Of a stretch of DNA of 64,000 nucleotides, positions 1-63,300 are shown one piece after another; position 1 is the stretch's first letter; each line of letters begins with the position of its first letter. Below the pieces are notes generated by a model. The model was not told the DNA's origin and made no database searches. It saw nothing but the letters and a program-made list of their open reading frames with translations. The position numbers and the translations under genes were made by a program. Origin of the DNA: Chloroflexi bacterium bin125. Its GTDB lineage: Bacteria; Chloroflexota; Dehalococcoidia; Bin125. The stretch covers positions 47,196 to 111,195 of the forward strand of contig MPNM01000008.1 in assembly GCA_002239025.1 (NCBI GenBank). Direction: 5' to 3'.

Positions 1-130
1 CGCTTTGCTACTGCGGCAGGAATTTCGCTCCGTGCAGTTCAAGGCGAGATTGCCGCGGCGGAGCGCGGCAATGACGAAAGTGGGGGAACTGGAGGCGCGC
101 GTCTACCGACCTATGCGTTCCAACTGTTGG

Positions 131-8244: not shown

Positions 8245-8895
8245 GTGAGCGATCCTGAGCTGGCCGACCTTGACGTAATCATCCTCGACTATGGCGCGGG
8301 TAACCTGCGCTCGGTCGTCCGCGCCGTCGAGCGTGTTGGCGCGAAGCCTGAAGTGGCGTCTGTCGCGGCTGCAATGGACGAAGCGGATGTGGTGATTCTG
8401 CCCGGCGTGGGCGCGGCTGCGGACACGATGCACAATCTGCGCGAGTTGCGCCTGATTGAGCCAATCCGCGAATACATCGCCGCCGACCGTCCGTTCCTTG
8501 GCGTCTGCATGGGACTGCAGGCGTTGATGACCGTCTCGGAAGAGGGCGGCGAGCATCCTTGCCTCGATGTACTCGAAGGCCGCGTCGTTCGTCTGCCGGA
8601 GGGCCGCAAGATTCCGCACATGGGTTGGAATCGGGTCGATCAACGGCGTCGGACGCCGCTCTTCGACGGCATTCCCGATGGCTCGCACTTCTATTTCGTC
8701 CACTCCTACTTCTGCGACATGGCGCAGCCCGAAGATGTCGTGGCGGTCGCCGACTACGGCACCGACGTCACAGCGGTCGTGGAACGCGGGAAGCTGGCGG
8801 CGACTCAGTTCCACCCGGAGAAGAGCGGCGCTTACGGTTTGCGGATCTATCGCAACTTCCTGCTCGAGCACTCCGGAAATGGAGTATCGAGATGA
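8245..8895 (+). CDS. hisH: Imidazole glycerol phosphate synthase glutaminase subunit HisH
   Basis: class I glutamine amidotransferase; VIILDYGAGNLRSV, GVCMGLQ. Confidence 0.95.
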   Translation: MSDPELADLDVIILDYGAGNLRSVVRAVERVGAKPEVASVAAAMDEADVVILPGVGAAADTMHNLRELRLIEPIREYIAADRPFLGVCMGLQALMTVSEEGGEHPCLDVLEGRVVRLPEGRKIPHMGWNRVDQRRRTPLFDGIPDGSHFYFVHSYFCDMAQPEDVVAVADYGTDVTAVVERGKLAATQFHPEKSGAYGLRIYRNFLLEHSGNGVSR

Positions 8896-9641
8896 CGCCC
8901 AACATGATTGACGTGTTGCCCGCGATCGATATCCGCGGCGGACGCTGCGTCCGTCTGGTCCAGGGCGACTACGAACGCGAGACCGTCTTCGACGACGATC
9001 CGACTGCGCCGGCGCGGCGCTGGATCGACGAAGGCGCCGAGATGTTGCATGTGATCGATCTGGACGGCGCTCGCGAGGGTCACGCGGCTAACGCGGAGTT
9101 CGTCGAGCGGATCGCGGCTCTGGGCAAACCGCTGCAAGTTGGCGGAGGCATACGCAATCTCGACACGGTTCGCCGCTACATCGATGCGGGTGTGTCGCGG
9201 ATCATTATCGGAACGGCCGCCGTCACCGACCGTGGGTTCCTTCAAAATGCGGTCGAGCTCTGTGGCGATGCGTTGACCGTGTCAGTCGACGCCAAGGGCG
9301 GACGGGTCGCGCTCAACGGTTGGACCGAGGCATCGGAGCTACCTGCCGTCGCCCTGATTCCGCAGCTTGAAGATCTCGGTGTGCGACGATTTATCTACAC
9401 AGACATCGCCTCCGACGGGATGCTCGGCGGCCACGATGAGGCTGAGTTCGCCCGCGTAGCCGGGGTCGCCCGATCGCCGGTGATCGCCGCCGGCGGGATT
9501 GCGCATCCGATGCAAATCCGCCGCCTCGCCGCCAACGGCGCAGCCGGAGTCGTGCTGGGGCGAGCGATCTACGACGGGCGGCTGCGACTGTCCGAAGCAT
9601 TCGAGGCAGCGGAAGCGGGAATACGCGAGCGGACATGCTGA
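8892..9641 (+). CDS. hisA: ProFAR isomerase HisA
   Basis: [27 protein letters not shown]; ATG 8892 overlaps hisH stop (ATGA); ORF track shows an upstream in-frame extension to 8559 that is not coding. Confidence 0.9.
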
Positions 9642-16656: not shown

Positions 16657-16695
16657 GGCCCCGTCATCGTGACATCGCGCGATTGAACATCTCCG

Positions 16696-16726
16696 TCATT
16701 CCCGCGCTCCGACGCGGGAATCTCGC
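16696..16726. repeat. Family D REP-like hairpin (GTCATTCCCGCG-N-CGCGGGAATCTCG)
   Basis: Perfect CCCGCG/CGCGGG stem; related copies at 39969-39998, 40084-40114, 52066-52096. Confidence 0.7.
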
Positions 16727-16841: not shown

Positions 16842-16900
16842 GCGGGACCCCCTCAGCCTTCGGCAGCTCCCCCTGCAAGGGGGAGCGGGGAACGCGGGAC
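16842..16900. repeat. Family B palindromic repeat (CGGGNCCCCTCNGCCTTCGGCANCTCCCCC...GGGGGAG)
   Basis: GCCTTCGGC tetraloop-type hairpin plus CTCCCCCTGCAAGGGGGAG hairpin; second copy 21362-21407. Confidence 0.7.
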
Positions 16901-19324: not shown

Positions 19325-19490
19325 TCTTTGGAGACGGCTCAGGTTTCATTTTCTCCCCCCTCCGGGGGGGAGATGCCGCAGGCAGAGGGGGGCTCCTTGC
19401 CTGTCGCCCCTAATGGAAGTCACCCGCCGCCCCCCAGTCACTCCGTGACATCTCCCCCGCAAGGGGGGAGATGGGACTTTGGGAGTCATG
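19325..19490. repeat. Family A repeat, internal core only (no outer TIRs)
   Basis: TTCTCCCCCCTCCGGGGGGGAGATGCCGCAGGCAGAGGGGGG...TCCGTGACATCTCCCCCGCAAGGGGGGAG aligns with cores at 27850-28010 and 45340-45480. Confidence 0.75.
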
Positions 19491-21093: not shown

Positions 21094-21114
21094 GGGCTCC
21101 CCCTTTGGGGGAGC
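21094..21114 (+). terminator. GC-rich hairpin immediately after glyQS stop (GCTCCCCCTTTGGGGGAGC)
   Basis: 9-bp stem/4-nt loop directly after TAA; resembles family B core; no clear U-tract. Confidence 0.35.
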
Positions 21115-21146
21115 TGCGTGTCAGACACCGGCCGCCTTCTTCGGGT

Positions 21147-21266
21147 CCCCTCTCCCTTTGGGAGAGGGTTAGGGTGAGGGCCGGAACCCGCAAACAGCGA
21201 CTCCCAACAGATTGATGTGACGGGGAACCCTCACCCCGGCCCTCTCCCAGAGGGAGAGGGGGTAAG
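21147..21266. repeat. Family C long palindromic element
   Basis: CCCCTCTCCCTTTGGGAGAGGGTTAGGGTGAGGGCCGG...CCGGGGAACCCTCACCCCGGCCCTCTCCCAGAGGGAGAGGGGGTAA; near-identical copy 52967-53086. Confidence 0.8.
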
Positions 21267-21361
21267 AGCCTAGTCGCACTGAGCAGACTTACGTGCGCGC
21301 CTTCTGTTGAGCAGCCGTCATGATGTCACGTCGTGAACTCCGGTGCGGACGTGCAATTGGC

Positions 21362-21407
21362 GGGCGGGCCCCCTCCGCCTTCGGCACCTCCCCCAACGGG
21401 GGAGGTC
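21362..21407. repeat. Family B palindromic repeat (copy 2)
   Basis: CGGGCCCCCTCCGCCTTCGGCACCTCCCCCAACGGGGGAGG aligns with 16842-16900. Confidence 0.65.
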
Positions 21408-27815: not shown

Positions 27816-28050
27816 GTTCCCAAGATTTCCAGTCCCCGCTCTACGGAGACCTTTGAAAGCTCCCCTTCTCCCCCCTTGCGGGGGAGATGCCGAAGGCAGA
27901 GGGGGGTCCGCTGTTTCGGGATCCCTATCTGGCCATCAACCGCCGCCCCCCCTCTGTCACTCCGTGACATCTCCCCCCGCAAGGGGGGGAGAGGGGATTC
28001 GGGAGTTCTTCGAGGGTCTTTGTATAGCGGGGACTGGGGAATGCGGTGTC
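27816..28050. mobile_element. Family A MITE-like element, full copy with ~40-bp terminal inverted repeats
   Basis: Left end GTTCCCAAGATTTCCAGTCCCCGCTCTACGGAGACCTTTGAA, right end its reverse complement (TTCGAGGGTCTTTGTATAGCGGGGACTGGGGAATGCG); core shared with 19325-19490 and 45308-45527. Confidence 0.8.
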
Positions 28051-39929: not shown

Positions 39930-39968
39930 AACCTGTTCACACGGAGGAGTCTCGCTCCAACGTGGATC

Positions 39969-40114
39969 GTCATACCCGCGCTTGACGCGGGTATCTCGCG
40001 GCGGCCCCTACAACGGCGCAACAACTGAGACTGCACGCAGACCTGGGCAACAGTGAAGAATGCTGCGAATGTGCAGCTTCTGTCGAGATTCCCGCGTCAA
40101 GCGCGGGAATGACG
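39969..40114. repeat. Composite family D element: two inverted REP-like hairpins flanking about 85 bp
   Basis: GTCATACCCGCGCTTGACGCGGGTATCTCG (39969-39998) and CGAGATTCCCGCGTCAAGCGCGGGAATGACG (40084-40114) are reverse complements of each other; internal CTGCACGCAG...CTGCGAATGTGCAG hairpin. Confidence 0.7.
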
Positions 40115-40154
40115 AGGTCAATTCAGGCGCAACAGCACCGATGAGCCCAAGTCA

Positions 40155-44508: not shown

Positions 44509-45162
44509 CTAGAGCAGCGACCGCTGAGAATCATCATCTTGCGCCGGTTCCCCCGAGCTCGAATCGCCGTGTGAGTGTCCCACCTGCAGGGCGGCTATCT
44601 CAGGACGTTCGGAATAAGCCAGCAACGGCGGAATGATCGCGAAGTCGTCCCGCATGGTTTGCATCAGATTTGAGTTCCGCAGCGCCGCCGACGGATGGTA
44701 AACCGGCAAGATCAGCCACGGACCAGCCTGAAATGGCTGCCCGCGCGACTCGCCCATCTTCGCGTCCGGCAGAAAATACTGAGTCGCAAACCGACCCAGC
44801 AGCACGATCAGCTTCGGCCGAATCCCCTCAATCTGCTCACGCAGATAGACCTCGCAGCAGCCAATCTCGTCCGGTTGAGGATCGCGATTCCCTGGAGGTC
44901 GACACTTGACCACATTGGCCACAAACACCTCAGGACGGCTCAAGCCAATCTCGCCCAGCAACTCATCCAACAACTGCCCCGCCCGACCGACAAACGGCCG
45001 TCCCTGCTTGTCCTCATTCGCCCCCGGACCCTCGCCAATGAACATCAACTCAGCATCGGGATCGCCATCGCCAGGAACTGTCAACGTCCGTGTCTCATGC
45101 AGACGGCAAGCCGTGCAACCAGCAATCCGGGCATTCAAAGAGGTAAGCGTCTGAGCATCCAC
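44509..45162 (-). CDS. udg: Family 4 uracil-DNA glycosylase
   Basis: [11 protein letters not shown] (Fe-S Cys), [23 protein letters not shown]. Confidence 0.9.
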
Positions 45163-45307
45163 GAAATCAGTCTACGACCAAGCAGCACAATCTCATCGCA
45201 CACTCTGTACTCCCTTGTTCCGCCACGCCCGCGCTCCTCCACTCCGTCATACCCGCTCTCCGCTCCGGAGCCTGCCTCCGGCTTGAGGGGATGTCTCAGA
45301 AGTCAAT

Positions 45308-45527
45308 GTTCCCAGTCCCCGCTTTACGGAGACCTCTGAAAAGTCCCCTTCTCCCCCTTGCGGGGGAGATGCCGAAGGCACAGGGGGGGTCCGCTGTTCG
45401 GGAGCCTATCTGGTCATCATGCGCCGCCCCCCTGTCACTTCGTGACATCTCCCCCGCAAAGGGGGGGAGAGGGGATTCGGCAGTTGTTCAAAGGTCTCCG
45501 TAAAGCGGGGACTGGAATCGTGGGAAC
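45308..45527. mobile_element. Family A MITE-like element, full copy with TIRs
   Basis: GTTCCCAGTCCCCGCTTTACGGAGACCTCTGAAAAG ... CAGTTGTTCAAAGGTCTCCGTAAAGCGGGGACTGGAATCGTGGGAAC; >90% identical to 27816-28050. Confidence 0.8.
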
Positions 45528-45549
45528 TGAGCCGGACTTCTGTAGTGAC

Positions 45550-46500
45550 TTACGCCGGCTGACCGTCAGGCTCGTCGTCGTCCAAGTCCGACTCGATCAC
45601 CGGGATCACCGTCCGGTTCTCCACCAGTCTCACCAGCACGATGCCCAGGATGTACAGCCCCATCGTCGGCACCGCGACAAACGTCTGCGTGACCGGGTCA
45701 ATCGAGGGCGTAATCAACGCGGCCAACAGGAACGAACCGATGATCGCCCAGCGCCACATGCCCATGAGTTTCTTCGAGGTCACGATCCCGATCGCACCCA
45801 GTCCCATCAGGAACAACGGCAGCTCAAACACGATCCCCGTCCAGATCACGAATCGCGTGAGCATGTCGATGTAGTTGTTGATCCGCACCTGAGGATCGGC
45901 GATCTCCTGGCCGAAGTTCAACAGGAACGTCAGCGCCGGTGGCCAGGCGATGAAGAACGCGAACGCGCCGCCACAGGCAAACGCAACCGTCGCCAGACCC
46001 ACGATCGGCATCACCCATTTCTGTTCAGCCCGCGTCAGTCCGGGGTGGATGAAGGCGTAAATCTGGTACACGATCACCGGCATCGCGCCGGCCAAGCCGA
46101 GCATCAGCGAAATCTTGATGTACGCGCCGATGAAGCCGAGCAGCTCGGTGTAGATCGGGCGGAACTCGGGCAGCGCCACACGGCCGGGTTCGAGCAGATA
46201 GTCCAGGATCGTTGATGCAAAGATCAACGCGACGACCGTCGTCAGCACCATGGTTAGCACGGCAACCGTCAGCCGCTGACGAATCTCGTTCAGGTGCTCG
46301 CCGAGCGTGAGCTCGGCTTCGTCCGGCTCATAGGGCGGAGCGCCCGGTGGACCATTGAGCGGACCATCAGGTGGACCATCGGGCTGCATGCCCGGTGGCA
46401 GACCGTCGTCGATTTCGTCTGCGACCACGTCCAACTCCGAGAGCTCTGGCGGCTCCGGCAAGTCGGACGGCGAGGGGACCGGTCGTGAGGCCATCAACAA
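45550..46500 (-). CDS. tatC: Twin-arginine translocase subunit TatC with Pro-rich N-terminal extension
   Basis: 6-TM TatC core (HLNEIRQRL..., YIDMLTRFV) preceded by about 65 aa P/D/E-rich segment. Confidence 0.9.
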   Translation of the reverse strand: MLMASRPVPSPSDLPEPPELSELDVVADEIDDGLPPGMQPDGPPDGPLNGPPGAPPYEPDEAELTLGEHLNEIRQRLTVAVLTMVLTTVVALIFASTILDYLLEPGRVALPEFRPIYTELLGFIGAYIKISLMLGLAGAMPVIVYQIYAFIHPGLTRAEQKWVMPIVGLATVAFACGGAFAFFIAWPPALTFLLNFGQEIADPQVRINNYIDMLTRFVIWTGIVFELPLFLMGLGAIGIVTSKKLMGMWRWAIIGSFLLAALITPSIDPVTQTFVAVPTMGLYILGIVLVRLVENRTVIPVIESDLDDDEPDGQPA

Positions 46501-50534: not shown

Positions 50535-51977
50535 GTGCGTGCCATCGGATATCTCAGTCAGCGCAGTGAACACCCGCCGCGGACCGACCACGCCGGCGAC
50601 GATCCCACGTTGGTCGTCCAGAACGCCAACTTCCTCGAGTATTGCCACGAGCACGGTTTCGAGCCCACCGCTACATTCCTCGATGCCGACACCGCGCACG
50701 ACAGCGAGCGCCCCGGACTCACCCAACTGCTGCGCCACCTGAGTGAAGAGGCGCGCGGCTTCACCTTCGTTATCACCCAGAGCTTTATCAATCTCGGCCA
50801 CGACGCCACGCATGCCGTCAGAACCGTGCTCCAACTCCGCGCTCGAGGCGTCCAACTCGTCTCTCTCGAGGACGGACCGATCGACGAGTCATCGCTGATC
50901 GATCTCTGGCGTCTACACAGCGATCCCGACCCCGATGCCAACCGCCGCAGGGAACGGTTGCAAGAGCGTGCCCGACTCGGCCAGGCCATCGGCCGTCCGC
51001 CATACGGCTACGGCGTCGGCGACGATGGCCGCTACGAGATCGACGAAGAGGAAGCGGCCGTGGTTCGGCGCATCTTCAACCTCTGTTTGCACGACGGACT
51101 CGGCATCCGCCGAATCGCGCAGCGCCTCAACGAAGAAGGCTTTCAAACTCGCCGCGGACGCAACTGGAGCATGGTCAGTATTCGCGACATGCTGCGTAAC
51201 CCCGTCTACATCGGCCGCTACGACAAGCTCGGGGTCAGCGTGCCGGGCAACCATCACGCCATTGTTTCCGAACCTGACTTCGAGGCCGTCGCGCAACAGA
51301 TGTCCCAGCGACGCACCGCGCCCGGCGTCAGTCATCCCTCCGACTTCTTACTCGCGGGACTGGTCTGGTGCGGCGAGGATCAGACACGCATGATCGGCGT
51401 GACCCGTCGTCAGCAGTGGCGCAAAGCCAGTGGCGACACTGCCGCGGCGACCTATCGCTACTACCAGTCCGAGGCACGCACCAACCAGTCGGTCGGCGGA
51501 TATCACACACGTCGTGCCGACGACCTTGAGGCCGAGGTTCTTTCGCACATCCGCGGAGAGCGGCAAGGCGGAGAGATTGCGGTGCTCAACATCGGCAGCA
51601 ACGACACCGCACTCGCCGCCGAGACCGCCGTCGCCGTCTCTACCGCCGAAGCGCGGCTCCGCGCCATCGACCGCAAGCTCAGCCAACTACTCGATGACGC
51701 ATCCGCCGGAGATCCACCGCCCGCGAGCCTGCAAGAGGCCGGAGCCGACATAATCGCCGAGTGGGAAACAGCCAGCGCCGATCTCGCCCAGATCAAAAGT
51801 CGAGCCCAGGCCCAGGAACGAGAAGCCGACCGCCGCCGCCGCAGAGATCAGCGTCTGCAACGAGTTCGAGAACACTGGGACTCCCTCGCATTCCCTCAAC
51901 AACGAGACCTGATCGAACACCTCGTCGACCGAGTCATCGTCTTCGACAACTCCGTCACCACCCAGCTCAAGGCCTAA
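50535..51977 (+). CDS. Large serine recombinase-like protein (resolvase N-domain + recombinase domain + degenerate Zn-ribbon/coiled coil)
   Basis: MRAIGYLSQRS..., DSERPGLTQLL, GRPPYGYGVGDDGRYEIDEEEAAVVRRIF, LNEEGFQTRRGRNWSMVSIRDMLRNPVYIG; several canonical catalytic residues appear substituted. Confidence 0.75.
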   Translation: MRAIGYLSQRSEHPPRTDHAGDDPTLVVQNANFLEYCHEHGFEPTATFLDADTAHDSERPGLTQLLRHLSEEARGFTFVITQSFINLGHDATHAVRTVLQLRARGVQLVSLEDGPIDESSLIDLWRLHSDPDPDANRRRERLQERARLGQAIGRPPYGYGVGDDGRYEIDEEEAAVVRRIFNLCLHDGLGIRRIAQRLNEEGFQTRRGRNWSMVSIRDMLRNPVYIGRYDKLGVSVPGNHHAIVSEPDFEAVAQQMSQRRTAPGVSHPSDFLLAGLVWCGEDQTRMIGVTRRQQWRKASGDTAAATYRYYQSEARTNQSVGGYHTRRADDLEAEVLSHIRGERQGGEIAVLNIGSNDTALAAETAVAVSTAEARLRAIDRKLSQLLDDASAGDPPPASLQEAGADIIAEWETASADLAQIKSRAQAQEREADRRRRRDQRLQRVREHWDSLAFPQQRDLIEHLVDRVIVFDNSVTTQLKA

Positions 51978-51984
51978 CCGCCCT

Positions 51985-52096
51985 CGCTTCCTCCGCTTCC
52001 CCCCTTGCGGGGGAAGCTGCCGAAGGCTGAAGGGGGGTTCCCGGCTTCAAGCGCAAACGTCCGTTCTGTCCTCTGCGAGATTCCCTCGGCAAGCGC
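51985..52096. repeat. Composite repeat: family A left-arm fragment plus degenerate family D hairpin
   Basis: CTTCCCCCCTTGCGGGGGAAGCTGCCGAAGGCTGAAGGGGGGTTCC then CGAGATTCCCTCGGCAAGCGCGCGAATGACG. Confidence 0.6.
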
Positions 52097-52135
52097 GCGA
52101 ATGACGCAGTCCGAACCAGCGCTAAGCTCACCGAC

Positions 52136-52552: not shown

Positions 52553-52950
52553 CGCCAGGCCGCCGGGCGGCCGCGGCGCACGTCTCGTACGCGCGTCGAG
52601 GAAAGTCCGGGCTCCGCGGGACAGGGCGCTGGGTAACTCCCAGGCAGGGTGACTTGACGGATAGTGCACAGAAACACACCGCCTACCCGGTCGACCACGC
52701 TCTTTCTGTGGCGACCGGCGGTAAGGGTGAGATGGTGCGGTAAGAGCGCACCAGCGGTCGGGTGACCGGCCGGCTGAGCAAACCCCGCCCGGAGCAAGAC
52801 CAAATAGGGAGACTGAGGCTTGTCCCGGGCCGTCTCCGGGTAGGTCGCTCGAGGCGGCGGGTAACCGTCGTCCCAGATGGATGGTCGCCAACCGATGCCC
52901 CGAGCAATCGGAGCATCGCGAACAGAACCCGGCTTACAGGCGGCCTGGCA
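52553..52950 (+). ncRNA. rnpB: RNase P RNA (bacterial type A)
   Basis: GAGGAAAGTCCGGGCTCC (P4), GGGTAACTCCCAGGC, AGGGTGA...GGTGCGGTAAGAGCGCACCAG, ACAGAACCCGGCTTA near the 3' end; P1 pairing GCCAGGCCGCC/GGCGGCCTGGC. Confidence 0.9.
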
Positions 52951-52966
52951 AAACGCCTACCTCCGA

Positions 52967-53086
52967 TCCCCTCTCCCCGTGGGAGAGGGTTAGGGTGAGG
53001 GCTGGGCCTGGACAAAGAACGATTCCCACGAGACAGATAGGCCGGGGAACCCTCACCCCAGCCCTCTCCCAGAGGGAGAGGGGGTA
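52967..53086. repeat. Family C long palindromic element (copy 2)
   Basis: CCCCTCTCCCCGTGGGAGAGGGTTAGGGTGAGGGCTGG...CCGGGGAACCCTCACCCCAGCCCTCTCCCAGAGGGAGAGGGGGTAA. Confidence 0.8.
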
Positions 53087-53205
53087 ATCGCCTCGCCGCA
53101 TCAAACTCACTTATGCCTACTTTTCCTAATGGAGATGGAGCGACACCTGAACCGCAAGAGACGATGTTCTGACCGGAGGAGAAACACAGAGGAGAGCGAG
53201 CACCA

Positions 53206-54798
53206 ATGTTGAACAAGTCACTCCGCGATCTCGTCGATCTGCCTACAAGTTCCGAAGACCCATCATCATTGGCCACGGTCATCACGGGAGTCACCCAGGA
53301 CTCCCGAGCCGTCCGACCCGGCGACCTCTTCGTCGCCATCCCAGGATTCTCCGTCGACGGCCACTTGTACATCGGCGACGCCATCACCAACGGGGCGGCA
53401 GCCCTCGTCGTCCAGTCCGACCGTCGCGACATCTGGCAACCAATCGCCGACAGCAATCCCGACATCGCCGTCATCAGCGTTGGCGACACGCGTGCCGCGT
53501 TGCCGGAGATCGCCGCAGCCTTCCACGACTTCCCGGCCCAAAAGCTCACAGTTGTCGGAGTCACGGGCACCGACGGCAAGTCGACCACGACATACCTCAC
53601 CCACGCCATGTTGACCGCCGCGGGACACCAGACTGGGCTGCTCAACGGCGTCGAGTTTCACATCGGAGGCGAGTGGACTCGCAACGAAACCGGCGAGACC
53701 ACGCCCGAGGCCGACATCATCCAGGCCAGACTCGCTGAAATGGTCGCCGCCGGCGACACACACGCCGTCCTCGAAGTCAGCTCCCATGGCCTCGACCTCC
53801 ATCGAGCCGACCAGATCAACGTACAGGTCGCCGTCTTCACCGGCCTCTCCGACGACCACCTCGACTTCCACCAGACGCGAGAGCAATACCTCGCCGCCAA
53901 GCTGAAACTGTTTCAGTCCCTGGAGGATCACGTGCCTCCTTTCTCCCCCCGCTCCGCGGGGGGAGATGTCCCGAAGGAACAGAGGGGGGATCTCGAGTCG
54001 GCCACCGCCGTCGTCAGAGCCGAGGATCCGCTCAGCGAAACCATCGCAGCCGCTCACAGTCGGCAGACGTTGGTGGCCACCGCCATCGCTGACACAAAGG
54101 CCGACCTCAGTATCCTCCCAGCCTCTCAGGACGCCACCGGTTCCGATGTCCGAGTCGTCACGCCCGCCGGAGCCCTCGCCGCCCGAGTCCCACTCCCTGG
54201 CGACTACAACCTGGGCAACGCAGCCCTCGCCGCCGGCGCAGCCTGGTCGCTCGGAGTCGGACCGATCGCGATGCAGGCCGCACTCAACAATCTCCGACCC
54301 GTCCCCGGACGAATGGAGTCGATCGACGTTGGACAACCCTTCACCGTCATGGTCGACGCCGCCGCCACCGGACCTGCGCTCGACCTGGCCCTGCAAACGC
54401 TCAAACCGCACACAGTCGGAAGACTGATACTCGTCTTCGGCGTCGCTGGAGAGCGTGACCCCGTGCGCAAATCCAGCATGGCGAAAGCCGCAGCTCTCTA
54501 TGCCGACCACACCGTAATCACGAACGAGAATCCACGCTCAGAAGATCCTGTCGAAATGGTCGATGAAATCGCACAACATCTCGTTGCCGCAGGCGGTCAA
54601 TACTTCGACAAAGAATCCGATCGCCGCCAGGCAATCGAGCGCGCGATCTCACTCGCCAAACCCGGCGACCTGGTCTTGATCGCCGGAAAAGGCGCTGAGC
54701 CCACGATGATCTACGCAGATCGCATTGAACCGTGGGACGATCGGGTTGTCGCCCGTGATCTGCTGCGAGGACTGATGTCTGAGCGCCTACCGCACTAA
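53206..54798 (+). CDS. murE: UDP-N-acetylmuramoyl-L-alanyl-D-glutamate--2,6-diaminopimelate ligase carrying an in-frame repeat insertion
   Basis: VVGVTGTDGKSTTTYL P-loop, DYNLGNAALAAGAA, PVPGRME; about 20 extra aa (PPFSPRSAGGDVPKEQRGDL) encoded by a family A fragment. Confidence 0.9.
   Translation: MLNKSLRDLVDLPTSSEDPSSLATVITGVTQDSRAVRPGDLFVAIPGFSVDGHLYIGDAITNGAAALVVQSDRRDIWQPIADSNPDIAVISVGDTRAALPEIAAAFHDFPAQKLTVVGVTGTDGKSTTTYLTHAMLTAAGHQTGLLNGVEFHIGGEWTRNETGETTPEADIIQARLAEMVAAGDTHAVLEVSSHGLDLHRADQINVQVAVFTGLSDDHLDFHQTREQYLAAKLKLFQSLEDHVPPFSPRSAGGDVPKEQRGDLESATAVVRAEDPLSETIAAAHSRQTLVATAIADTKADLSILPASQDATGSDVRVVTPAGALAARVPLPGDYNLGNAALAAGAAWSLGVGPIAMQAALNNLRPVPGRMESIDVGQPFTVMVDAAATGPALDLALQTLKPHTVGRLILVFGVAGERDPVRKSSMAKAAALYADHTVITNENPRSEDPVEMVDEIAQHLVAAGGQYFDKESDRRQAIERAISLAKPGDLVLIAGKGAEPTMIYADRIEPWDDRVVARDLLRGLMSERLPH
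53935..53995. repeat. Family A fragment inserted in-frame within murE
   Basis: CCTTTCTCCCCCCGCTCCGCGGGGGGAGATGTCCCGAAGGAACAGAGGGGGGATC aligns with the left core of family A (CTTCTCCCCCCTTGCGGGGGAGATGCCGAAGGCAGAGGGGGGTCC). Confidence 0.75.
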
Positions 54799-56535: not shown

Positions 56536-57357
56536 ATGTCAGACCACGACCTCCTGCCGCCCGACCAACGCCTCGACATCAACCTCGTCCGCTCGCTCCT
56601 CAACACTTCTGAGTTCGGCAACAACCTTCACTATCTGGTCCAGACCACCTCCACCATGGACGACGCGCGCCGCCTCGCCGAGGACGGTGCGCGGCACGGC
56701 ACAGTGGTCGTCGCCGACGAGCAGACTGCTGGTCGCGGGACCAAGGGACGCATCTGGGTCTCGCCGCCAGGTCAGAGCATTCACACCACGCTGATCGTTC
56801 GCCCGACCATCGAGCAACTCAAGCGACTCAGCATTGTCAGCCCCGTTGCCACGACCGACGCCGTTCGCGAGACTACGCCGCTGCAACCAACGATCAAGTG
56901 GCCCAATGACATCCAGATGGAACATCGGAAAATGGGCGGCATCCTGATCGAAGCCGACTGGGGAGCCGGTCAACCGCACTACGCGCTGGTCGGCATCGGC
57001 CTCAACGTCAACTTTGACCCCGCACCCTGGGCCACCGAGATTGACCGCCCGGCCACCAGTCTGATGATCGAACTCGGTGCCCGCCAGCAGCGAGAGCCGG
57101 TGTTCGCAGCATTGCTCAATGCCTTCGAGCAGCGCTTCAATCAGGCGGAATCATCCGAGTTGCACGAGGCCTGGACGTCTCGACTGGACACGCTGGGCCA
57201 GGCAGTCACGGTCACGCTCGCAAGCGGAGAAGCGATTCGAGGAACAGCCGTCGCGGTCGATGAAGCAGGAGCGCTAATCCTCGAAACCGAAGAGGGGCAG
57301 CAACGCACGTTTATCGCCGGGGAAGTCACCTTACGAGCGGCCACAACTCCGCAGTAG
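56536..57357 (+). CDS. birA: Biotin--[acetyl-CoA-carboxylase] ligase
   Basis: TTSTMDDARRLAEDG...ADEQTAGRGTKGRIW...KWPNDI BPL motifs. Confidence 0.85.
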   Translation: MSDHDLLPPDQRLDINLVRSLLNTSEFGNNLHYLVQTTSTMDDARRLAEDGARHGTVVVADEQTAGRGTKGRIWVSPPGQSIHTTLIVRPTIEQLKRLSIVSPVATTDAVRETTPLQPTIKWPNDIQMEHRKMGGILIEADWGAGQPHYALVGIGLNVNFDPAPWATEIDRPATSLMIELGARQQREPVFAALLNAFEQRFNQAESSELHEAWTSRLDTLGQAVTVTLASGEAIRGTAVAVDEAGALILETEEGQQRTFIAGEVTLRAATTPQ

Positions 57358-60300
57358 GCCGCAATCGGAGGTCCCGTTGCACGATCAGTGACGGCCCGAC
57401 GATTGGGTCACCAGGTCTCATGATCCGCCACTGACCTGAGATCAGGTCCAGCACGCAGTGCGACGTCCAGAGACCGCCAACATCTTCGCCCGAGAGCACA
57501 ATTCTCGTCTCAACGTCGGTCGGGACACCTTCAAGGTCCGTGAATCCAACCCACCAGACCTTCGCGTCTGGCTCGTCGACGCCATGCAAGCAGGAGGCGG
57601 GAACCGAAGCAATCTGCTCGAGCACATCCGCAGTGTGCTCGACTCGATGCGTGTGAAGGCGGATGGTCCCGTCACCCAGCGATTTGGCATCAATCGAGAG
57701 GTGTAAGCCTCCCCGGACGACCGTTGTCCACCCTTCGCCAGCCAGCACAACTGCATCGACACCCTCTGTTGAAGCGAATCCTCGAGCCAACTCACGAGCA
57801 AACGTAGTCTCGCCATTCGACGATCGCAACGCCGCGTCTTCGATCCGCTGCTTGGTCGACCTCGGTCGAGCGGTTTCGTTGATCGCTTGCGTACGGAATG
57901 CTGCTAGTTCGATGGCGGAAAGATCACGGACCGGACCTTGCTCGCCTGCCGAGTAAGACAGTGTTACCGAGTCGAGCGATGTCACACGCTCTGCCAGCGT
58001 GAGAGTCACATTACTCGCTGACCAGTCCAGTGAACTGACTTCGATTGGGCGACGGCCCGCCGTCACTGTGAAGTCCGATGGCAGCGCGAAGCTCCCGTCG
58101 ACTCGCTGATTGAACATCACTTCGATTTCGCGGGCGTTGGCCACGACGCCACTGACCATCGGTGCCGTCTCGGTAAAGTTGCGAACCACGAAGACAGTGT
58201 CCGGCGCCCTCACTCCGGTCAATCCGGCAATCCCGCCTCGCTGGCGTGACCAATAGACGAGACCGAACGCCTCCAGGTCGTCGGGCAAATCTCTGGATAA
58301 CTCCAGGTAGAGCGAGGTACCACTTACGTCGACGCTGCGCGTCGTTGCCTCAACGTCTGCCCCGACCAGCTCAAACCGCGACGCAGGAATGTGCCGTTCG
58401 AGCAGAGGCTGGTCAAACGTGAGGAACACCGACGACCTCAACGCAAAGGCGGACGCGATCTTCGGCGGCGCGGTGACATCGATCACATCGATCCCGAAAG
58501 AGGCGATTGTCAAGCCAGTCCCACGCAAGGATTCGCCCGAATAACTCACTCGCGCGGGCTGTTCCGCACGAAGACCGGGCGCAACCAACTGCAATCGGAG
58601 CGTGTTGTTGTCGATGGCTGTCACCGCTGCCACCGATGCGTCACCGTTGATCGTGAACTGATTCGGCTCAGGAAGATCTGGTTCCAACGCCTGGTCGAAC
58701 GTCAGCGTCAGCGACACCCCATTAGCTTCAGCGCTCACAACGCATGGAGCTGCTTGAAGCAACTCGCGTTGGAACATCTGTGACTGCGATTCACTTGATT
58801 TGTAACGTCGAACCGTCACGAGATCACCAACGCAGATGGCCAAGTCAGGACTGAGCGCCACTACCGACCCTTGAGTCGAGAACTCAGCGGCACGTTCTGC
58901 TTCGTCGATCAGCAGAGACCACTCGTAGTCCGCGAGCGGAGTGGTCTGCAGTTCTGCCAGGAAGGTCAGTGTGAGACCGCCGAAGTCTGAAGTGACGCAT
59001 TGCAGACCCCAGGCAGGATCGATCAGGTTGGGCACATCGAGATCAAACGCCGAGATCTCCAGGCCCGACGCATCACGCAGTGCATGCTCCGCCGGTGCAT
59101 GCGCCACCGACAACGATGCGCATTCGGGGATTGGGTCGGTCAAATGAATCATCAGGCTTCTGTCCCGTGTTGAGGCCTGCTCAATTGCTTGCAAGTCGTC
59201 GTCAGCCGCGACGCGGAGCGAGCTCGCCTCGAGCTGCATGGCCGTCCCCATCTCAGCATCGAATTCAACAACGATGCGCTCAGGTTCCTTGCGGTCCAGC
59301 GCGCTGGCCACCGGCGCCGCCGCAGTCAAGTTGGCGACCGGCATTGGGTCAATACTCTCTACGTCGTGGGGCGGCATCGAGGTGTCGCGAAGGTTGAATC
59401 GGCCATCGAAGATCGATTCAGGGCTGTAAGTCACCCTCAATTGCTCCCCTGGGACAACTCGCTCGGCCAGGTCGAGAAACACAGTTGAGTCGCTAATCGC
59501 GACCGACTCGATCGCCACGACCTCGTCGTTGTTCCGTAGAACATCAAACCACTGCACTTCTGGATGTTCGTCGCAGTCGAAGTCGGGAATCTGCTCTTCG
59601 AGAGCTTCGCAGTTTGGAGGAGGCATAGAGCTCGGGTCGAGCGGCTGATCGAATTCAATCGCCAGCTTCCGGTCATTTGCCGTCGCCTGGACAAGTAACG
59701 GCGCCACATCGACGCGATTGATCACTGGCATCGTAAAACCCGATACGGCATTTGGAGCATCGTCATCTCGCAGGCCGCCGGACTCTGGTAGCGAATACGT
59801 CAACAAAAGCGCAGCCCCTTCAGGTACCGATTCACCTGCTTCAAGCGAGATGTTCAGACGACGCCGTTGTTCCGACGAGGGATCGAAGACCACCGAATCG
59901 ATCGGTTGCGCCGGTTCGAACGAAAACCAGGAATGATCAACGGTGTTCAGTGCATCCAGCGTTTGATCGAAACTCAGAGTGACGACTTGCCCACTCTCGT
60001 CGGTGATCACCTCGACTGGATACGGCGCGTAGTCCGTCTGATTGTCAACTTCTTGAACAAACTCCTCGATTCTGTTGCCATGAGTATCCAGCAACGCATG
60101 GGTCGCAGGGGGCGTATAGCTGAGTGAGATCGACTCATCTTCGACAGCCCCGACAGCGAGCCTCAACGTCAAGCTGGAACCCATCAAGGCGACCGACTCA
60201 ATCCCGATTCCGTTCGACAGCGAAAACGCGGTCATTAGAGGCTGCGTGTCCTCGTCCAGATCGTCACTGAACCGCAGCAGCAGCACGGCACCGTCAACTT

Positions 60301-63300
60301 CAGCGGACTCGACCTCAGCCGTTCTTGGCGTCAGGTTCGTCAGAAGAAGATTGCTAATCTGGGCTCGATGTTGCCCGACATCGTCATCGCGGATTCGGAT
60401 TGTCCCCGAAACAGGGAAGTACTTGATGGTCAGGGATTCATCCGCTCCAACCGACTCTGAAAGCGTCAACACCACCTTTCCAACGCCATCTGGTCCGTCG
60501 TTGGAGACTTCGACAAAGGTGATTGAGGCGTCAGTTCCCTCGACCTTGAAATGATCGGTCGGATATCCGTCATCGCCGCCGAATCGAGGGTCGTCGTATA
60601 TCTCCTGATCGAGAATGACGGTGATCGTCTCGTCCTCAACCACTCCCGACACAGGAACAGGTGCGGTATCGGTCCGATTGTCGATGGCCAGCGAAAACGA
60701 CTCGACGCGGTTACCACTTGGGTCTGCGACTCCGGCCTCAGTCGGTATCAGATAATCGATCGATGCAGTTTCGTCCTCTACGAGCGCTCGCGAGAGCGTC
60801 AAGTCCAGCGAATCGTCGTCGATGGCAACGGTAGTCACGCTCACCGCCGACTCCGCCGACTCCGCCGTGATGCTGAACAGATTGGCTGGGACCGCCGAAG
60901 CCGAGTCGAGCGACTGGTCAAACTCGATCAAGACCGCGTCGCCGTCACCCGTCGCCGATGCGGCAGTCGGCGCGACATCGGTGTTGTTGGTCACGGCTTC
61001 GGAGAAGTCCGCAATCATCGTGCCATCGGACTGCTGCAAGGGTGAGTGCATCGGTGCGGTGTACGTCAGTGTGTAGTTCGCCCCCTCAACAAGCGGGTCA
61101 GCCAACGTCACTGTGACCGCCATGTCCGAGACGGTGACGCTCGAGACGGATTGTTCCCCCGAACCGAGGGAGAATGCCGATGCGTCCGGCGTTGAGTTGG
61201 TGTCCAGATTCACCGAGAAGCTGATGACGATCTCCGCGCCGTCTCCCACGACCGATCGCACCAGCGGTTCCGGCGTCATGTTGACCACGGCGAATCCCGT
61301 GAACATTGCGACGACGACTTCTTTGCCTGCACGTTTGAGTTTGTTGGAGTCTCCTGCGGAATAGGACACGGTGACCGTGTCGTCGTGCTCGACGACTGTC
61401 GACAGCGCGAGGGTCACCGACGCGCCGTCGATAGCCACGCCGGTGACTGAGATATCTGCCGGCATGAGACTGAAGTTGGTAGCTGGCGGCTTGCTGTCTT
61501 CATCCAGCGCGCGATCGAATGTAAGTACTAATGAGTCGCCGTTGACTGTAGCCTCGGTCGGCCGTGGCGCACCGTCTGCGTTGTTGGTCACTGACGCGGA
61601 GGTCCAGGCTGAGGTCTTCCACATCGCATCGACACTCTGCAGCGCGGGCGACGTGGTGTCCGTCGGCGGTTGATAGCTGATCGTCACCGACTCGTTGACA
61701 TCGGCCGCGGGATCGAGGCTGAGCACGACGTTGGAGCCGCTGACGGACACGGCATCGATGGTACCCGCAGCGCTGCCGGCCATGGTGAAGGTGGACTTGT
61801 CGGGCACTCCGCCGGCTGTGGCGAGTAGCGAGTGGGACATGACGATCGTAAGCGTGCGGCCTGCCGGAGCAACAGACGCTGAGTCAAACGTCGGCGTTGG
61901 ATCTCCCGCCAGGTTGGTTACAGGCAGCGAGACGAAGGAGTCGACGCCGATCTCCTTGCCGTCTCGCTTCAGCGGCGATTCCATCGGAGCGGTGTAAGAG
62001 ACGCTGATGCGCTCGGTGTGATTAATGGCTGAACTGAGAGTCAGGATCAGGTCGTTCCCATCGATCGATAGGTTCGTCACTGCTGCCGATGTGCCAGCCA
62101 CCGAGACGGCGATCCCAGCCGGAATTGAGCTGGGATCCAGAAGTCGATCGAATGAGAGGGTCAGACGGTCACCGTCAACCTCCGCCAAGATCGGACGAGG
62201 TTTGCCATCGGCGCTGTTGGTCACCGGTTGGCCGGTGAACGCCAGCACCGGCTGGGCGTCTGCAGCCGACTGCAATCGCGCTGCCATCAAGTCGGTCGGC
62301 GGCGCGTAGCCGACTGTGACCGTTTCGTCGACATCGGCCCGCGGGCTGAGCGATAGAGAGACGGTCGAGTCGTCAATCGCGACTGAGTCAACCGATGCGG
62401 AGGTTCCCGTGAGCGAGAACGTCGAGCCCGCAGGCATATGCTCAGCGTCCTCATCGAGGGCGAGCGAGAAGGTGATGGTCAGGGTCGATCCCTCGGCCGA
62501 AACCGCTGCGCTGCTGAACTCCGGTACAGGCGCAACGGTGTTGTTGGTAACTGACCGATCCGTGAACGAATCGGCATCTACGATGTTCCGGCCCTCAATT
62601 CTTGGTGGTTGGTCGGGCTTCGCATAGGAAACGGTGATCGCGGCCCCGGCGCTCACCGCCGATGTAAGGGTGAGTGTCACGGTGGACTCAGTCAGCGATG
62701 TGTTGGCGAATGAAATCTTGCTGATCGTGACTCCATCCTCACCGTCAATCGAGAATGCTGAGGCAGGCGCGACCGCCTTGAGTGGAAGATTGAATGTGAT
62801 CTCCAATACTGCGCCGTTAACTACTGCCTTCGTCACAATGGGCTTCGCCGTCGGTGTACTGCTCTGAAAGGTGAAGGAGTAAATGTCCGCCACATTGTGC
62901 GCTGCGTCTGACTGACGAAGCGGCGTCTGGTTGGGTTCGATGTATTCGAGGGTGTATGTCGTCGAGTCGCGATTGTGCAGGATTCCGCTCAGCGAGAGCG
63001 TGACAACTGCCCTCGACACCGAAACCCCCTCCACACTCGGAGCGTGTTGAATGCCTCCAATCGTGAACGCATCGGCAGCAGGAACGCTGTCCTCGTCGAG
63101 CTCCTCACTGAAATTCAGCGTGACGAGGTCATACAGGGCCGTAACGGAGTTGAGGGTTGGAGGGCTGTCGACGCGATTCACAACCGCACGCTCCGACCAG
63201 CTCTCGATCTGCTTGTTGCCCTGATTCGCGTCTTGCGGCGGATCGCCGTCATCGGCGTCGTCCCTGTCATAATCCAACGCGATGTCATCGCCTTCGTCAA

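What the first reader, a model, noticed from the sequence alone, without database searches (positions are those of the whole stretch)
27816..28050. A MITE-like element family (A) with ~40-bp terminal inverted repeats: two near-identical full copies plus internal fragments
Copies at 27816-28050 and 45308-45527 share >90% identity over about 220 bp. They are bounded by nearly perfect inverted termini (GTTCCCA..CCAGTCCCCGCT(C/T)TACGGAGACCTTTGAA and its reverse complement). Inside sit two G/C-homopolymer hairpins (CTCCCCCTTGCGGGGGAG and CTCCCCCGCAAGGGGGGAG). Truncated cores occur at 19325-19490, 51985-52045 and 53935-53995. TIRs without an encoded transposase are the hallmark of non-autonomous transposable elements. 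Five copies or fragments in 64 kb implies a genome-wide expansion. I do not recognise this as a named family (REP, Correia, RPE, ERIC, BOX).
Basis: seen in the sequence. Interest (0 to 1): 0.55.

Follow-up and report, generated by a model that had tools for sequence, protein, structure and literature searches.

The report
Nested palindromic repeat mosaic in Chloroflexota
The two "MITE-like" copies are real, but they are one layer of a REP/BIME-type system of stacked hairpin repeats that a group of Chloroflexota genomes keeps swapping at the same intergenic spots, and even in one loop of the essential enzyme MurE. The inner hairpin module is also a high-copy repeat of rhizobia.

Summary
Two about 210-bp non-coding elements (27827-28040, 45310-45517) have 27-33-bp inverted termini (TCCCAGTCCCCGCTTTACGGAGACCTTTG). 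They are 86% identical, not over 90%.

The "fragments" are not truncated copies. They are independent "C5" modules. Each has hairpin H1 (CTCCCCC-TTGC-GGGGGAG), a small GNA-loop hairpin H2 and a G-run. At least 10 lie in the window. One sits in frame inside murE.

Each full element is an inverted C5 pair wrapped in an outer hairpin pair, the "TIR".

- Related Dehalococcoidia MAGs and metagenome contigs carry the same termini around at least three different interiors.
- At orthologous sites the occupant differs between species: empty, single hairpin, CGTC-tagged REP dimer, other doublets, or family A.
- No target-site duplication is visible.
- No autonomous partner and no RAYT were found in the DNA I could reach.

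The C5 module matches a high-copy repeat of Rhizobiaceae replicons at 80-93% identity, with the same architecture.

Best reading: a mosaic REP/REPIN/BIME-like palindromic element, mobile as a unit, probably handled as single-stranded hairpin DNA. It is not a classical cut-and-paste MITE. The enzyme is unidentified. This is a new variant of a known kind.

The parts
27827..28040 (.). Family A copy 1, core element from terminus to terminus. It lies between the polA stop (27788) and the DUF6159 start (28102).
   Evidence: Folds as one long hairpin (RNA -147 kcal/mol, z -10).
27827..27858 (+). Copy 1 left terminus (TTCCAGTCCCCGCTCTACGGAGACCTTTGAAA). It contains its own small imperfect hairpin, GTCCCCG/CGGAGAC.
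27860..27906 (+). Copy 1 left C5 module: H1 CTCCCCCC-TTGC-GGGGGAG, H2 TGCC-GAA-GGCA, then a G-run.
27946..27997 (-). Copy 1 right C5 module, inverted, with the other H2 type (TGTCAC-GGA-GTGACA).
28009..28040 (-). Copy 1 right terminus, degraded (5 of 27 positions differ from the consensus).
45310..45517 (.). Family A copy 2, core element, between tatC (45550-46500, minus strand) and a UDG-family gene (44509-45162, minus strand).
   Evidence: DNA fold -80 kcal/mol, z -11.6. The ortholog in L021 is 96% identical.
45310..45342 (+). Copy 2 left terminus.
45343..45389 (+). Copy 2 left C5 module.
45427..45475 (-). Copy 2 right C5 module (H2 TGTCAC-GAA-GTGAC).
45487..45517 (-). Copy 2 right terminus.
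45290..45309 (+). Extra outer inverted layer of copy 2 (GATGTCTCAGAAGTCAATGT). Its partner GGACTTCTGTAG lies at 45534-45545. The same layer flanks copies L007, L035, L037 and L038.
45245..45262 (+). Remnant of the left arm of a CGTC-tagged REP (CCGTCATACCCGC) next to copy 2. Orthologs L022-L024 carry a full CGTC-REP dimer here instead of family A.
19353..19470 (.). C5 doublet without the family A termini and with a different spacer, downstream of the H+-pyrophosphatase gene.
16848..16885 (-). Solo C5 module.
21369..21404 (-). Solo C5 module. An H1-only hairpin lies at 21097-21113, and the two bracket a family B doublet.
51997..52037 (+). C5 module directly after the serine-recombinase stop codon. 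It forms a hybrid dimer with a degenerate CGTC REP at 52078-52110. In L022, L023 and L025 the same position holds a CGTC REP.
53943..53989 (+). C5 module in frame inside murE (53206-54798). It encodes ...SPRSAGGDVPKEQRG... and splits the Mur_ligase_M domain.

Best explanation
Family A is a composite palindromic repeat of the REP/REPIN/BIME kind in a Dehalococcoidia-class Chloroflexota genome.

Anatomy (shown):
- The inner unit is an inverted pair of C5 modules. Each module is a G5/C5 hairpin, then a mini-hairpin closed on a GAA or GGA triloop, then a G-run. The pair is separated by a spacer of about 38 nt.
- This pair is wrapped in a second inverted pair of a different small hairpin, GTCCCCGC-TTTA-CGGAGAC.
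- Some copies carry a third outer layer.

Behaviour (shown):
- The whole 210-bp composite has been copied as a unit to many loci.
- It carries no gene, shows no target-site duplication and has no visible autonomous parent.
- Palindromic modules of several families occupy the same short intergenic slots in related species. They replace one another cassette-like while the flanks, the spacer or the partner module stay in place.
- They also flip by inversion and collapse by deletion.

Mechanism (inferred):
- The modules are handled as folded single-stranded DNA hairpins, most likely at replication forks.
- The agent would be a hairpin-recognising enzyme of the HUH tyrosine-transposase type (RAYT or TIRYT-like) encoded elsewhere in the genome.
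- Homologous recombination or gene conversion between the many 30-50-nt repeats would account for interior swapping, inversion and deletion.
- Once inserted, a copy decays neutrally.
- Any effect on the host, such as a very stable hairpin inside operon transcripts, would be a by-product.
For: Anatomy and excess over chance.

Spread as a unit:
- 11 copies from the window, 5 MAGs and metagenome contigs align from terminus to terminus, including the spacer. Conservation stops at TCCCAGT/ACTGGGA.
- Paralogs are 74-90% identical.

One set of termini, several interiors: C5 doublets, GTAG-tagged REP dimers and GTCCCCGCC-type doublets all sit between the same termini.

Same flanks, same termini, different interior in different species: L007 against L014, L002 against L012, and L004/L010 against L011.

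Slot turnover:
- The polA-DUF6159 spacer is empty (17 nt) in L029. It holds a single hairpin in L030, a type-3 doublet in L028, a CGTC-REP dimer in L027 and family A in the window.
- The UDG-tatC spacer holds family A in the window and L021, and CGTC dimers in L022-L024.
- In the recombinase-RNase H spacer, the left CGTC REP is precisely replaced by a C5 module while the spacer and the right partner are retained.

Rearrangements typical of palindromes:
- The spacer is inverted between L022 and L024 (91% identity as reverse complement, 44% on the same strand).
- L031 differs from L009 by a 102-nt central deletion between TCTCCCCC repeats.

Hairpin-level constraint:
- 58 of 82 C5 modules have an H2 stem of at least 4 bp, against 4.7% of shuffles.
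- At least 5 different stem sequences occur.
- 58 of 82 loops are GAA or GGA.

No selection on the long hairpin: 0 of 73 pairs are compensatory, and many changes on one side break a pair.

No TSD. No transposase nearby.

REP context:
- The co-resident family C is a CGTC-tagged REP. Its in-frame peptide VIPAQAGI is nearly that of the Rickettsia CGTC-1 element, VIPAKAGI.
- One interior type is a GTAG-tagged REP dimer.
- A Chloroflexota plasmid carries a RAYT flanked by GTAG REP dimers.
- REP dimers sitting inside longer palindromes are described in PMC3733652.
Against: - No RAYT or other candidate enzyme was found. tblastn with E. coli RayT and with a Chloroflexota RAYT found nothing in about 520 kb of held DNA.
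- The RAYT homolog search returned no protein on the MAG contigs of interest. The complete genomes could not be searched.
- The C5 module carries neither the GTAG nor the CGTC tag that marks REPs linked to RAYTs.
- PMC3733652 reports no dedicated transposase for CGTC REPs.
- No RAYT hit fell on any Rhizobiaceae plasmid or chromid, although C5 modules are abundant there. Rhizobial chromosomes were not searched.
- Paralog divergence of 10-25% means no recent movement is documented.
- Interior swapping could equally be independent insertion into the same site.
Confidence: 0.55

Rival explanations
1. Classical MITE. The element is a deletion derivative of an insertion sequence. A DDE transposase (for example IS630 or IS5-like) binds the 27-33-bp termini and moves it by cut-and-paste.
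For: - The termini are conserved across at least three element families with unrelated interiors, as expected if only the ends are recognised.
- Size is uniform at about 200-225 bp.
- Copies lie at many loci and in several species.
Against: - No target-site duplication appears in 10 copies.
- No locus has a transposase-sized interior among 27 exact-match loci from two large collections.
- No match to the termini exists in 72,556 plasmids or in IMG/VR.
- The interiors are REP doublets, not IS remnants.
- The terminus is itself a REP-like hairpin related to the type-3 module (GTCCCCGC core).
Confidence: 0.15
2. Transposase-independent spread. The hairpin modules are copied between sites by template switching or gene conversion at stalled forks, primed by microhomology between G/C-rich hairpin arms. 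No dedicated enzyme is involved.
For: - Modules are replaced precisely at fixed sites while the neighbouring spacer or partner is retained.
- Within murE, the window (C5 module) and L023 (CGTC REP) share the tail GG(G/A)ATCTCG...CCACC at the insertion site.
- Interiors are swapped within fixed termini.
- Half-site tandem duplications occur (CGTCATxCCCGCGC repeated).
- No TSD and no transposase were found.
- CGTC REPs are reported to lack a dedicated transposase (PMC3733652).
Against: - First colonisation of a previously empty, non-homologous site is hard to explain by conversion alone. L029 is empty where four other species are occupied.
- The same C5 module occurs in Rhizobiaceae and Chloroflexota. 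This argues for a transferable agent or for strong convergence.
Confidence: 0.15
3. Host-selected RNA or DNA structure. The hairpins are kept because a strong stem-loop after stop codons, inside operons or after RNase P RNA stabilises or processes transcripts. Which family supplies the hairpin would be interchangeable.
For: - Modules sit directly after stop codons and between co-directional genes.
- In the related genomes that carry these repeats, the same slots hold some hairpin element.
- Hairpins are very stable.
- REP and BIME elements are known to stabilise upstream mRNA (established knowledge, cited in PMC3733652).
Against: - Closely related genomes have empty slots. L029 has a 17-nt spacer, and L026 and L030 carry few modules.
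- There is no compensatory change in the long hairpin, and pair-breaking substitutions are frequent.
- No terminator-like T-run and no promoter consensus is present.
- A module is tolerated inside a coding region.
Confidence: 0.1

Closest known systems
REPINs (REP doublets forming hairpins) with RAYT transposases (Bertels & Rainey 2011, PMC3116915)
   Same: - Two inverted short palindromes are separated by a spacer, and the whole folds into a long hairpin.
- The elements are non-coding, intergenic and multi-copy.
- There is no TSD.
- Both solo and doublet forms occur.
   Different: - The C5 unit is bipartite (two hairpins plus a G-run), heterodimeric, and lacks the GTAG tag.
- The doublet is wrapped in a further inverted hairpin pair.
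- No cognate RAYT was found.
BIMEs of E. coli and REP dimers embedded in longer palindromes (Di Nocera et al. 2013, PMC3733652: Anabaena GTAG-15, Halothiobacillus CGTC-1, Thermomicrobium GTAG-23)
   Same: - REP-type hairpins are combined in mosaics with other motifs.
- Dimers sit inside an outer palindrome.
- Hybrid dimers of different families occur.
- Empty outer palindromes are not found.
   Different: - Here one outer palindrome frames at least three unrelated interiors.
- The interiors differ at orthologous sites between species.
GTAG- and CGTC-tagged REP superfamilies, including Neisseria dRS3 and Rickettsia RPE-6 (PMC3733652)
   Same: - The window's family C (16694-16725, 39967-40115 and others) has the CGTC tag, an 8-9-bp stem starting with AT and a 4-5-nt loop.
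- It encodes VIPAQAGI in frame, like the R. conorii CGTC-1 element (VIPAKAGI).
- One interior type in related loci is a GTAG-tagged REP dimer.
   Different: - The C5 module and the family A terminus carry neither tag.
- The 2013 survey did not list Chloroflexi among the phyla with CGTC REPs.
Rickettsia palindromic elements (RPE) inserted in frame in genes
   Same: A hairpin repeat is inserted in frame in a surface loop of a conserved enzyme, and the reading frame stays open.
   Different: Here one site of one essential gene (murE) carries different repeat families, stacks of them, or nothing, in different related species.
Intergenic palindromic repeats of Rhizobiaceae (literature names: RIMEs, Sm-repeats, AB/C palindromes; PMC2573895)
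   Same: - The C5 module matches 845 places in 167 Rhizobiales replicons at 80-93% identity.
- H1, H2 and the G-run are in the same order.
- In Neorhizobium galegae the heterodimeric doublet is the same.
   Different: - The rhizobial copies lack the family A termini and have unrelated spacers.
- I could not check which named rhizobial family they belong to.
Bacterial MITEs such as Correia/NEMIS, ERIC, Nezha and RUP
   Same: - Size of 100-300 bp, terminal inverted repeats, no coding capacity and an intergenic position.
- The element folds into a long hairpin if transcribed.
   Different: - No TSD and no related IS.
- The interior is built from independently occurring REP-like modules.

Membership tests
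MITE (IS-derived miniature inverted-repeat transposable element) | Terminal inverted repeats of about 15-40 bp on a non-coding element of 70-300 bp | tested here: met
MITE | Target-site duplication flanking the copies | tested here: not met
   The flanks of 10 copies show no direct repeat. The only empty site available (L029) is too diverged in its flanks to define the junction exactly.
MITE | An autonomous IS with matching ends and a transposase | tested here: inconclusive
   All 27 exact-match loci in GTDB species genomes and JGI metagenomes are short elements. There is no match in plasmids or viral contigs. Only exact 23-mers were scanned, and whole genomes could not be searched.
REPIN / REP | Two short palindromes in inverted orientation with a spacer, which also occur as singletons | tested here: met
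   C5 doublets at 27860-27997, 45343-45475 and 19353-19470. Singletons at 16848, 21369, 51997 and 53943.
REPIN / REP | GTAG (or CGTC) tetranucleotide tag at the foot of the hairpin | tested here: not met
   C5 modules and the family A terminus lack both tags. The tags are present in co-resident family C and in the type-2 interior of related loci.
REPIN / REP | A RAYT gene flanked by the same repeats in the same genome | not testable with these tools
   There is no RAYT in about 520 kb of held DNA, and none on the relevant contigs among the 120 listed homologs.
BIME-like mosaic | REP-type units combined with other conserved motifs in variable arrangements | tested here: met
   Termini with C5, GTAG or type-3 interiors. 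A C5 plus CGTC hybrid dimer. Stacks inside murE.
RPE-like in-frame genic insertion | The repeat lies inside a conserved ORF, the frame is kept, and orthologs lack the insert | tested here: met
   In murE the window carries the C5 module while L025 and L026 are empty. Solved MurE structures have a short loop at this position.
Structured RNA family | Covariation supporting the fold, or membership in Rfam | tested here: not met
   0 of 73 pairs are compensatory. There are no Rfam matches apart from noise.
Rhizobial intergenic repeat carrying the C5 module | Sequence and architecture match to the repeat in Rhizobiaceae replicons | tested here: met
   Identity with the named RIME or Sm-repeat families was not tested because the 1995 paper is not held.

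The most novel reading that the evidence does not exclude
The hairpin modules behave as exchangeable cassettes. An as yet unknown agent replaces one palindromic module by another at fixed genomic addresses, including one loop of the essential gene murE. The agent could be an unrecognised hairpin-specific enzyme or an enzyme-free template-switch process. The same C5 module is shared between Chloroflexota, Rhizobiaceae and some phage contigs, which would reflect cross-phylum transfer of that agent rather than convergence.
Probability: 0.15. Interest if true: 0.8.

Novelty: new variant of a known kind. Interest (0 to 1): 0.5.

Why it matters
How REP-type repeats without a GTAG tag spread is an open question. 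[quoted passage not shown]

This lineage offers an unusually clean natural experiment:
- There are many closed long-read MAGs of related species with conserved synteny.
- The same 17-nt intergenic slot is empty in one species and filled by four different palindromic families in four others.
- Single modules are swapped while their partners stay in place.
- An essential gene's loop accumulates in-frame stacks of them.

This makes insertion, replacement, inversion and deletion junctions directly readable. The shared C5 module gives a handle for asking whether such hairpins move between phyla.

For annotation, the finding also explains length variation of MurE (500-622 aa) among the close relatives compared here, and spurious low-complexity peptides.

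Tried and rejected
- **Known RNA family.** Rfam at gathering threshold found only RNase P. The E-value mode gave only sub-threshold miRNA-model noise on the hairpin. Rejected.
- **Intrinsic terminator or promoter.** No consensus sites at either copy.
- **RAYT in held DNA.** tblastn with E. coli RayT, which matches annotated rayT at 100%, and with a Chloroflexota RAYT gave no hits.
- **Homolog search for a RAYT on the MAG contigs.** I seeded the last homolog search with the Chloroflexota RAYT. The top 120 hits were other lineages. This led nowhere.
- **C5 as one of the CGTC families.** The CGTC-3 peptides in the paper's supplement do not match C5 translations. Rejected.
- **Window source among the fetched MAG loci.** BLAST matched only at the repeats. 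The window's genome is a different, related genome. NCBI names its MurE as from 'MAG: Chloroflexi bacterium'.
- **Literature search by sequence strings and by repeat peptides.** Nothing relevant. The RIME paper is not held.
- **IS630/Tc1-like ends.** These begin CAGT with a TA duplication. The bases outside CAGT here are a conserved CC/GG, not TA. This rests on recalled knowledge of that family only.

Full report

- The terminal motif CCAGTCCCCGCTYTACGGAGACC occurs four times in the window with up to 3 mismatches. These are the two ends of the two copies. None is expected in shuffles.
- The G/C hairpin CTCCCCC-N3-9-GGGGGAG occurs ten times against none expected.
- The longer string GGGGGAGATGCCGAAGGCAGAGGGGGG occurs five times with up to 3 mismatches.

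Three corrections are needed.
- The two copies are 86% identical, not over 90%.
- The termini of copy 1 are visibly degraded, with 5 of 27 positions changed.
- An alignment of eleven copies from several genomes places the conserved ends at TCCCAGT...ACTGGGA. The core elements are therefore 27827-28040 and 45310-45517.

**2. Anatomy.**

The interior is made of two inverted copies of a bipartite "C5" module. Each module has three parts:
- hairpin H1, CTCCCCC-TTGC-GGGGGAG;
- a mini-hairpin H2;
- a G-run.

The left module carries H2 = TGCC-GAA-GGCA. The right module carries H2 = TGTCAC-GGA-GTGACA.

The terminus is itself a small imperfect hairpin, GTCCCCG-CTTTA-CGGAGAC, followed by CTTTGAAA.

The whole element folds into one long hairpin. 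As DNA the energy is -80 kcal/mol (z -11.6). As RNA it is -147 kcal/mol (z -10).

Some copies, including copy 2, have a further outer inverted layer, GTCTCAGAAGT....

They are free C5 modules or a C5 doublet without the termini. There are more of them than listed: 16848, 19353/19430, 21097, 21369, 51997 and 53943.

**3. Context.**

The window is a housekeeping stretch of a Chloroflexota MAG.
- Genes identified include rodA, a PBP, mreBC, ligA, ftsH, the H+-pyrophosphatase, hisS, uvrA, polA, fpg, ruvABC, uvrB, tatC, murE and RNase P RNA (gene tables).
- No transposase is present.
- Copy 1 lies between polA and a DUF6159 gene. Copy 2 lies between tatC and a UDG-family gene.
- In both cases the flanking genes are co-directional and probably co-transcribed.
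- No promoter or terminator consensus is associated with either copy.
- Rfam has no family for the element.

**4. Relatives elsewhere.**

An exact-pattern scan for the terminus gave 19 loci in six Dehalococcoidia MAGs among 185,579 species genomes. It gave 8 loci in JGI metagenome contigs.

All of these are short elements of about 200-480 bp. None has room for a transposase.

The same termini enclose at least three unrelated interiors:
- C5 doublets, in two subfamilies;
- a dimer of a GTAG-tagged REP (GTAGGGGCGACC-CTTGT-GGTCGCCC);
- a doublet of GTCCCCGCC-type hairpins.

Window-like C5 copies share even the spacer between the modules, so this composite spread as a unit.

Paralogs are 74-90% identical. 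The one orthologous pair (window copy 2 and L021) is 96% identical. The family is therefore old, and no recent burst is visible.

No target-site duplication is visible at ten copies.

**5. Orthologous sites show turnover.**

I fetched syntenic loci through MurE and DUF6159 homologs.

The polA-DUF6159 spacer:
- L029: 17 nt, empty.
- L030: one small hairpin.
- L028: a type-3 doublet.
- L027: a CGTC-REP dimer.
- Window: family A, next to what looks like a remnant of the type-3 right arm.

The UDG-tatC spacer:
- Window and L021: family A.
- L022, L023 and L024: CGTC-REP dimers.
- L025: a mixture.
- L026: none of these.

The recombinase-RNase H spacer:
- L022, L023 and L025 have a CGTC-REP dimer.
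- In the window, L021 and L024, only the left REP has been replaced by a C5 module.
- The spacer and the right CGTC partner remain homologous.

Three sets of orthologous loci have identical flanks and identical termini but different interiors: L007 against L014, L002 against L012, and L004/L010 against L011.

Two further rearrangements were confirmed.
- The spacer of the CGTC dimer is inverted between L022 and L024. It is 91% identical as reverse complement and 44% identical on the same strand.
- L031/L032 differ from L009 by a 102-nt central deletion between TCTCCCCC repeats.

**6. The murE hotspot.**

The module at 53943-53989 lies in frame inside murE and splits the Mur_ligase_M match.

I aligned 120 homologs of 55-100% identity. 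The stretch between KLKLFQSLDxH and AVVRAEDP holds one of the following:
- nothing;
- a C5 peptide (PFSPRSAGGDVPKEQRG, PLSPREAGGDVAERQRGAP or PLSPREAGGDAEGRGGLPT);
- a CGTC-REP peptide (VIPAQAGISP);
- other small hairpin peptides (SPLHSGTR);
- stacks of several units, giving proteins of up to 622 aa.

At the DNA level the inserts are the repeat modules themselves. The empty alleles have a small palindrome at the site (ACGGCCAGGCCGT in L025).

Solved MurE structures have a short loop at this position.

**7. What constrains the sequence.**
- Across 82 C5 modules in about 520 kb of held DNA, H2 keeps a perfect stem of at least 4 bp in 58 cases. Only 4.7% of shuffles do so.
- At least five different stem sequences are used.
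- 58 of the 82 loops are GAA or GGA.
- From my own knowledge, not tested here: C-GAA-G is the core of an exceptionally stable DNA mini-hairpin. This points to single-stranded DNA rather than RNA as the relevant form.
- The long hairpin of family A shows no compensatory change in 73 pairs and many pair-breaking substitutions. After insertion it simply decays.

**8. Comparison with what is known.**

Family C of the window (41-76, 16694-16725, 39967-40115, 52078-52110) fits the CGTC-tagged REPs of Di Nocera et al. 2013.
- It has the tag, an 8-9-bp stem starting with AT and a 4-5-nt loop.
- Its in-frame translation VIPAQAGI is nearly that of R. conorii CGTC-1, VIPAKAGI.
- That survey did not list Chloroflexi among the phyla with CGTC REPs.

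The same paper describes several matching features:
- REP dimers embedded in longer palindromes;
- hybrid dimers;
- intragenic REPs;
- RAYT-like genes flanked by long TIRs that form repeat families.

The C5 module has neither tag and does not match the CGTC-3 peptides.

Unexpectedly, the 53-nt C5 module matches 845 places in 167 Rhizobiales plasmid or chromid records at 80-93% identity.
- In Neorhizobium galegae the doublet has the same H1/H2/G-run order and the same heterodimer arrangement. It lacks the family A termini.
- Sinorhizobium meliloti shows the module as well.
- Rhizobial intergenic repeats are known in the literature as RIMEs, Sm-repeats and AB/C palindromes. I could not check which name applies.
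- A looser version of the motif occurs in seven viral contigs of 43-62% GC.

**9. Mechanism.**

Shown:
- the composite, palindromic, modular anatomy;
- spread as a unit;
- no TSD and no nearby or matching transposase;
- replacement, inversion and deletion at fixed sites;
- constraint on the small hairpins but not on the long one.

Inferred:
- The modules are recognised as folded single-stranded hairpins by an enzyme encoded elsewhere.
- A HUH Y1 transposase of the RAYT/TIRYT type is the precedent.
- A Chloroflexota plasmid does carry a RAYT flanked by GTAG REP dimers.
- Recombination among the repeats produces the swaps.

I could not find the enzyme. The C5 and CGTC families are exactly those for which no enzyme is known. 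A transposase-independent template-switch route therefore remains a live rival, and a classical DDE-mobilised MITE is not excluded.

**10. Verdict.**

- It is a non-autonomous repeat with inverted termini that has spread.
- Its kind is REP/REPIN/BIME-like rather than an IS-derived MITE.
- It is a new variant of a known kind, and interest is moderate.

The most interesting aspects lie beyond the original coordinates:
- the cassette-like turnover at orthologous slots;
- the murE hotspot;
- the module shared with rhizobia.

Noticed in passing
window 53206-54798 (murE), insert at about 53935-54000; homologs P0001-P0120: One loop of MurE is a hotspot. In related species it carries nothing, a C5 module, a CGTC-REP (VIPAQAGISP), other small hairpins, or in-frame stacks of up to about 5 units. 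Protein length ranges from 500 to 622 aa.
   Followed up: yes
window 21133-21291 and 52954-53113; also L026 about 8860-8960: There is a third repeat family (B): an inverted pair of CCCCTCTCCC-NNN-GGGAGAGGGTTAGGGTGAGGG. One copy starts 2 nt after the 3' end of the RNase P RNA gene (52555-52952). In L026 a B doublet fills the recombinase-RNase H slot.
   Followed up: partly
window 41-76, 16694-16725, 39967-39998 with 40084-40115, 52078-52110: These are CGTC-tagged REPs (CGTCATxCCCGCG...CGCGGGxATCTCG), solo and as a head-to-head dimer. They belong to the same superfamily as Neisseria dRS3 and Rickettsia RPE-6. The 2013 survey did not list this phylum for CGTC REPs.
   Followed up: partly
window 50535-51977; L020-L026: A large serine recombinase (Resolvase, Recombinase and Zn_ribbon_recom domains; 480 aa) sits in the same syntenic position in all seven related loci examined. 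It lies next to an RNase H/RVT_3 gene. It looks like a conserved chromosomal gene rather than part of a mobile element. Its role is unknown, and no link to the repeats was tested.
   Followed up: no
L022 2193-2277 against L024 2019-2101: The spacer between the two arms of an orthologous CGTC-REP dimer is inverted between two species (91% identity as reverse complement).
   Followed up: yes
L031 about 1528-1640 and L032 against L009 1500-1722: At an orthologous site the family A element has lost 102 central nt between two TCTCCCCC repeats. The two C5 hairpins have collapsed into one.
   Followed up: yes
L039 (Neorhizobium galegae pNg7g1) 295-425; L040 (S. meliloti pMl9) 140-180 and 300-345; 167 PLSDB records: The C5 module is a high-copy intergenic repeat of Rhizobiaceae replicons, with up to 40 or more places per record. 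The architecture is the same as in this Chloroflexota window.
   Followed up: partly
L042-L048 (IMG/VR contigs): The motif GGGGGAG(A/G)TGCCG(A/C)AGGC(A/G)GAGGGGG also occurs between genes in seven viral contigs of 43-62% GC. H1 loops there are longer and different. Hosts are unknown.
   Followed up: partly
L041 (Chloroflexota bacterium ZRK35 plasmid CP069395.1) 1390-2300: A RAYT-type transposase (41.5% identical to E. coli RayT) is flanked on both sides by GTAG-tagged REP dimers. This is a classical REPtron in another Chloroflexota lineage.
   Followed up: partly
window 34-45 kb region and L022-L024 intergenic and murE sequences: Left half-sites of the CGTC REP (CGTCATxCCCGCGC) are tandemly repeated upstream of complete REPs. 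This occurs both in the UDG-tatC spacer and inside murE, where the half-sites encode TITPAPTT repeats.
   Followed up: no
window 57326-63925: There is a 2199-aa ORF on the minus strand with Big_5/SWM_repeat-type domains. It is conserved in synteny but varies in length (2147-2479 aa) among relatives.
   Followed up: no
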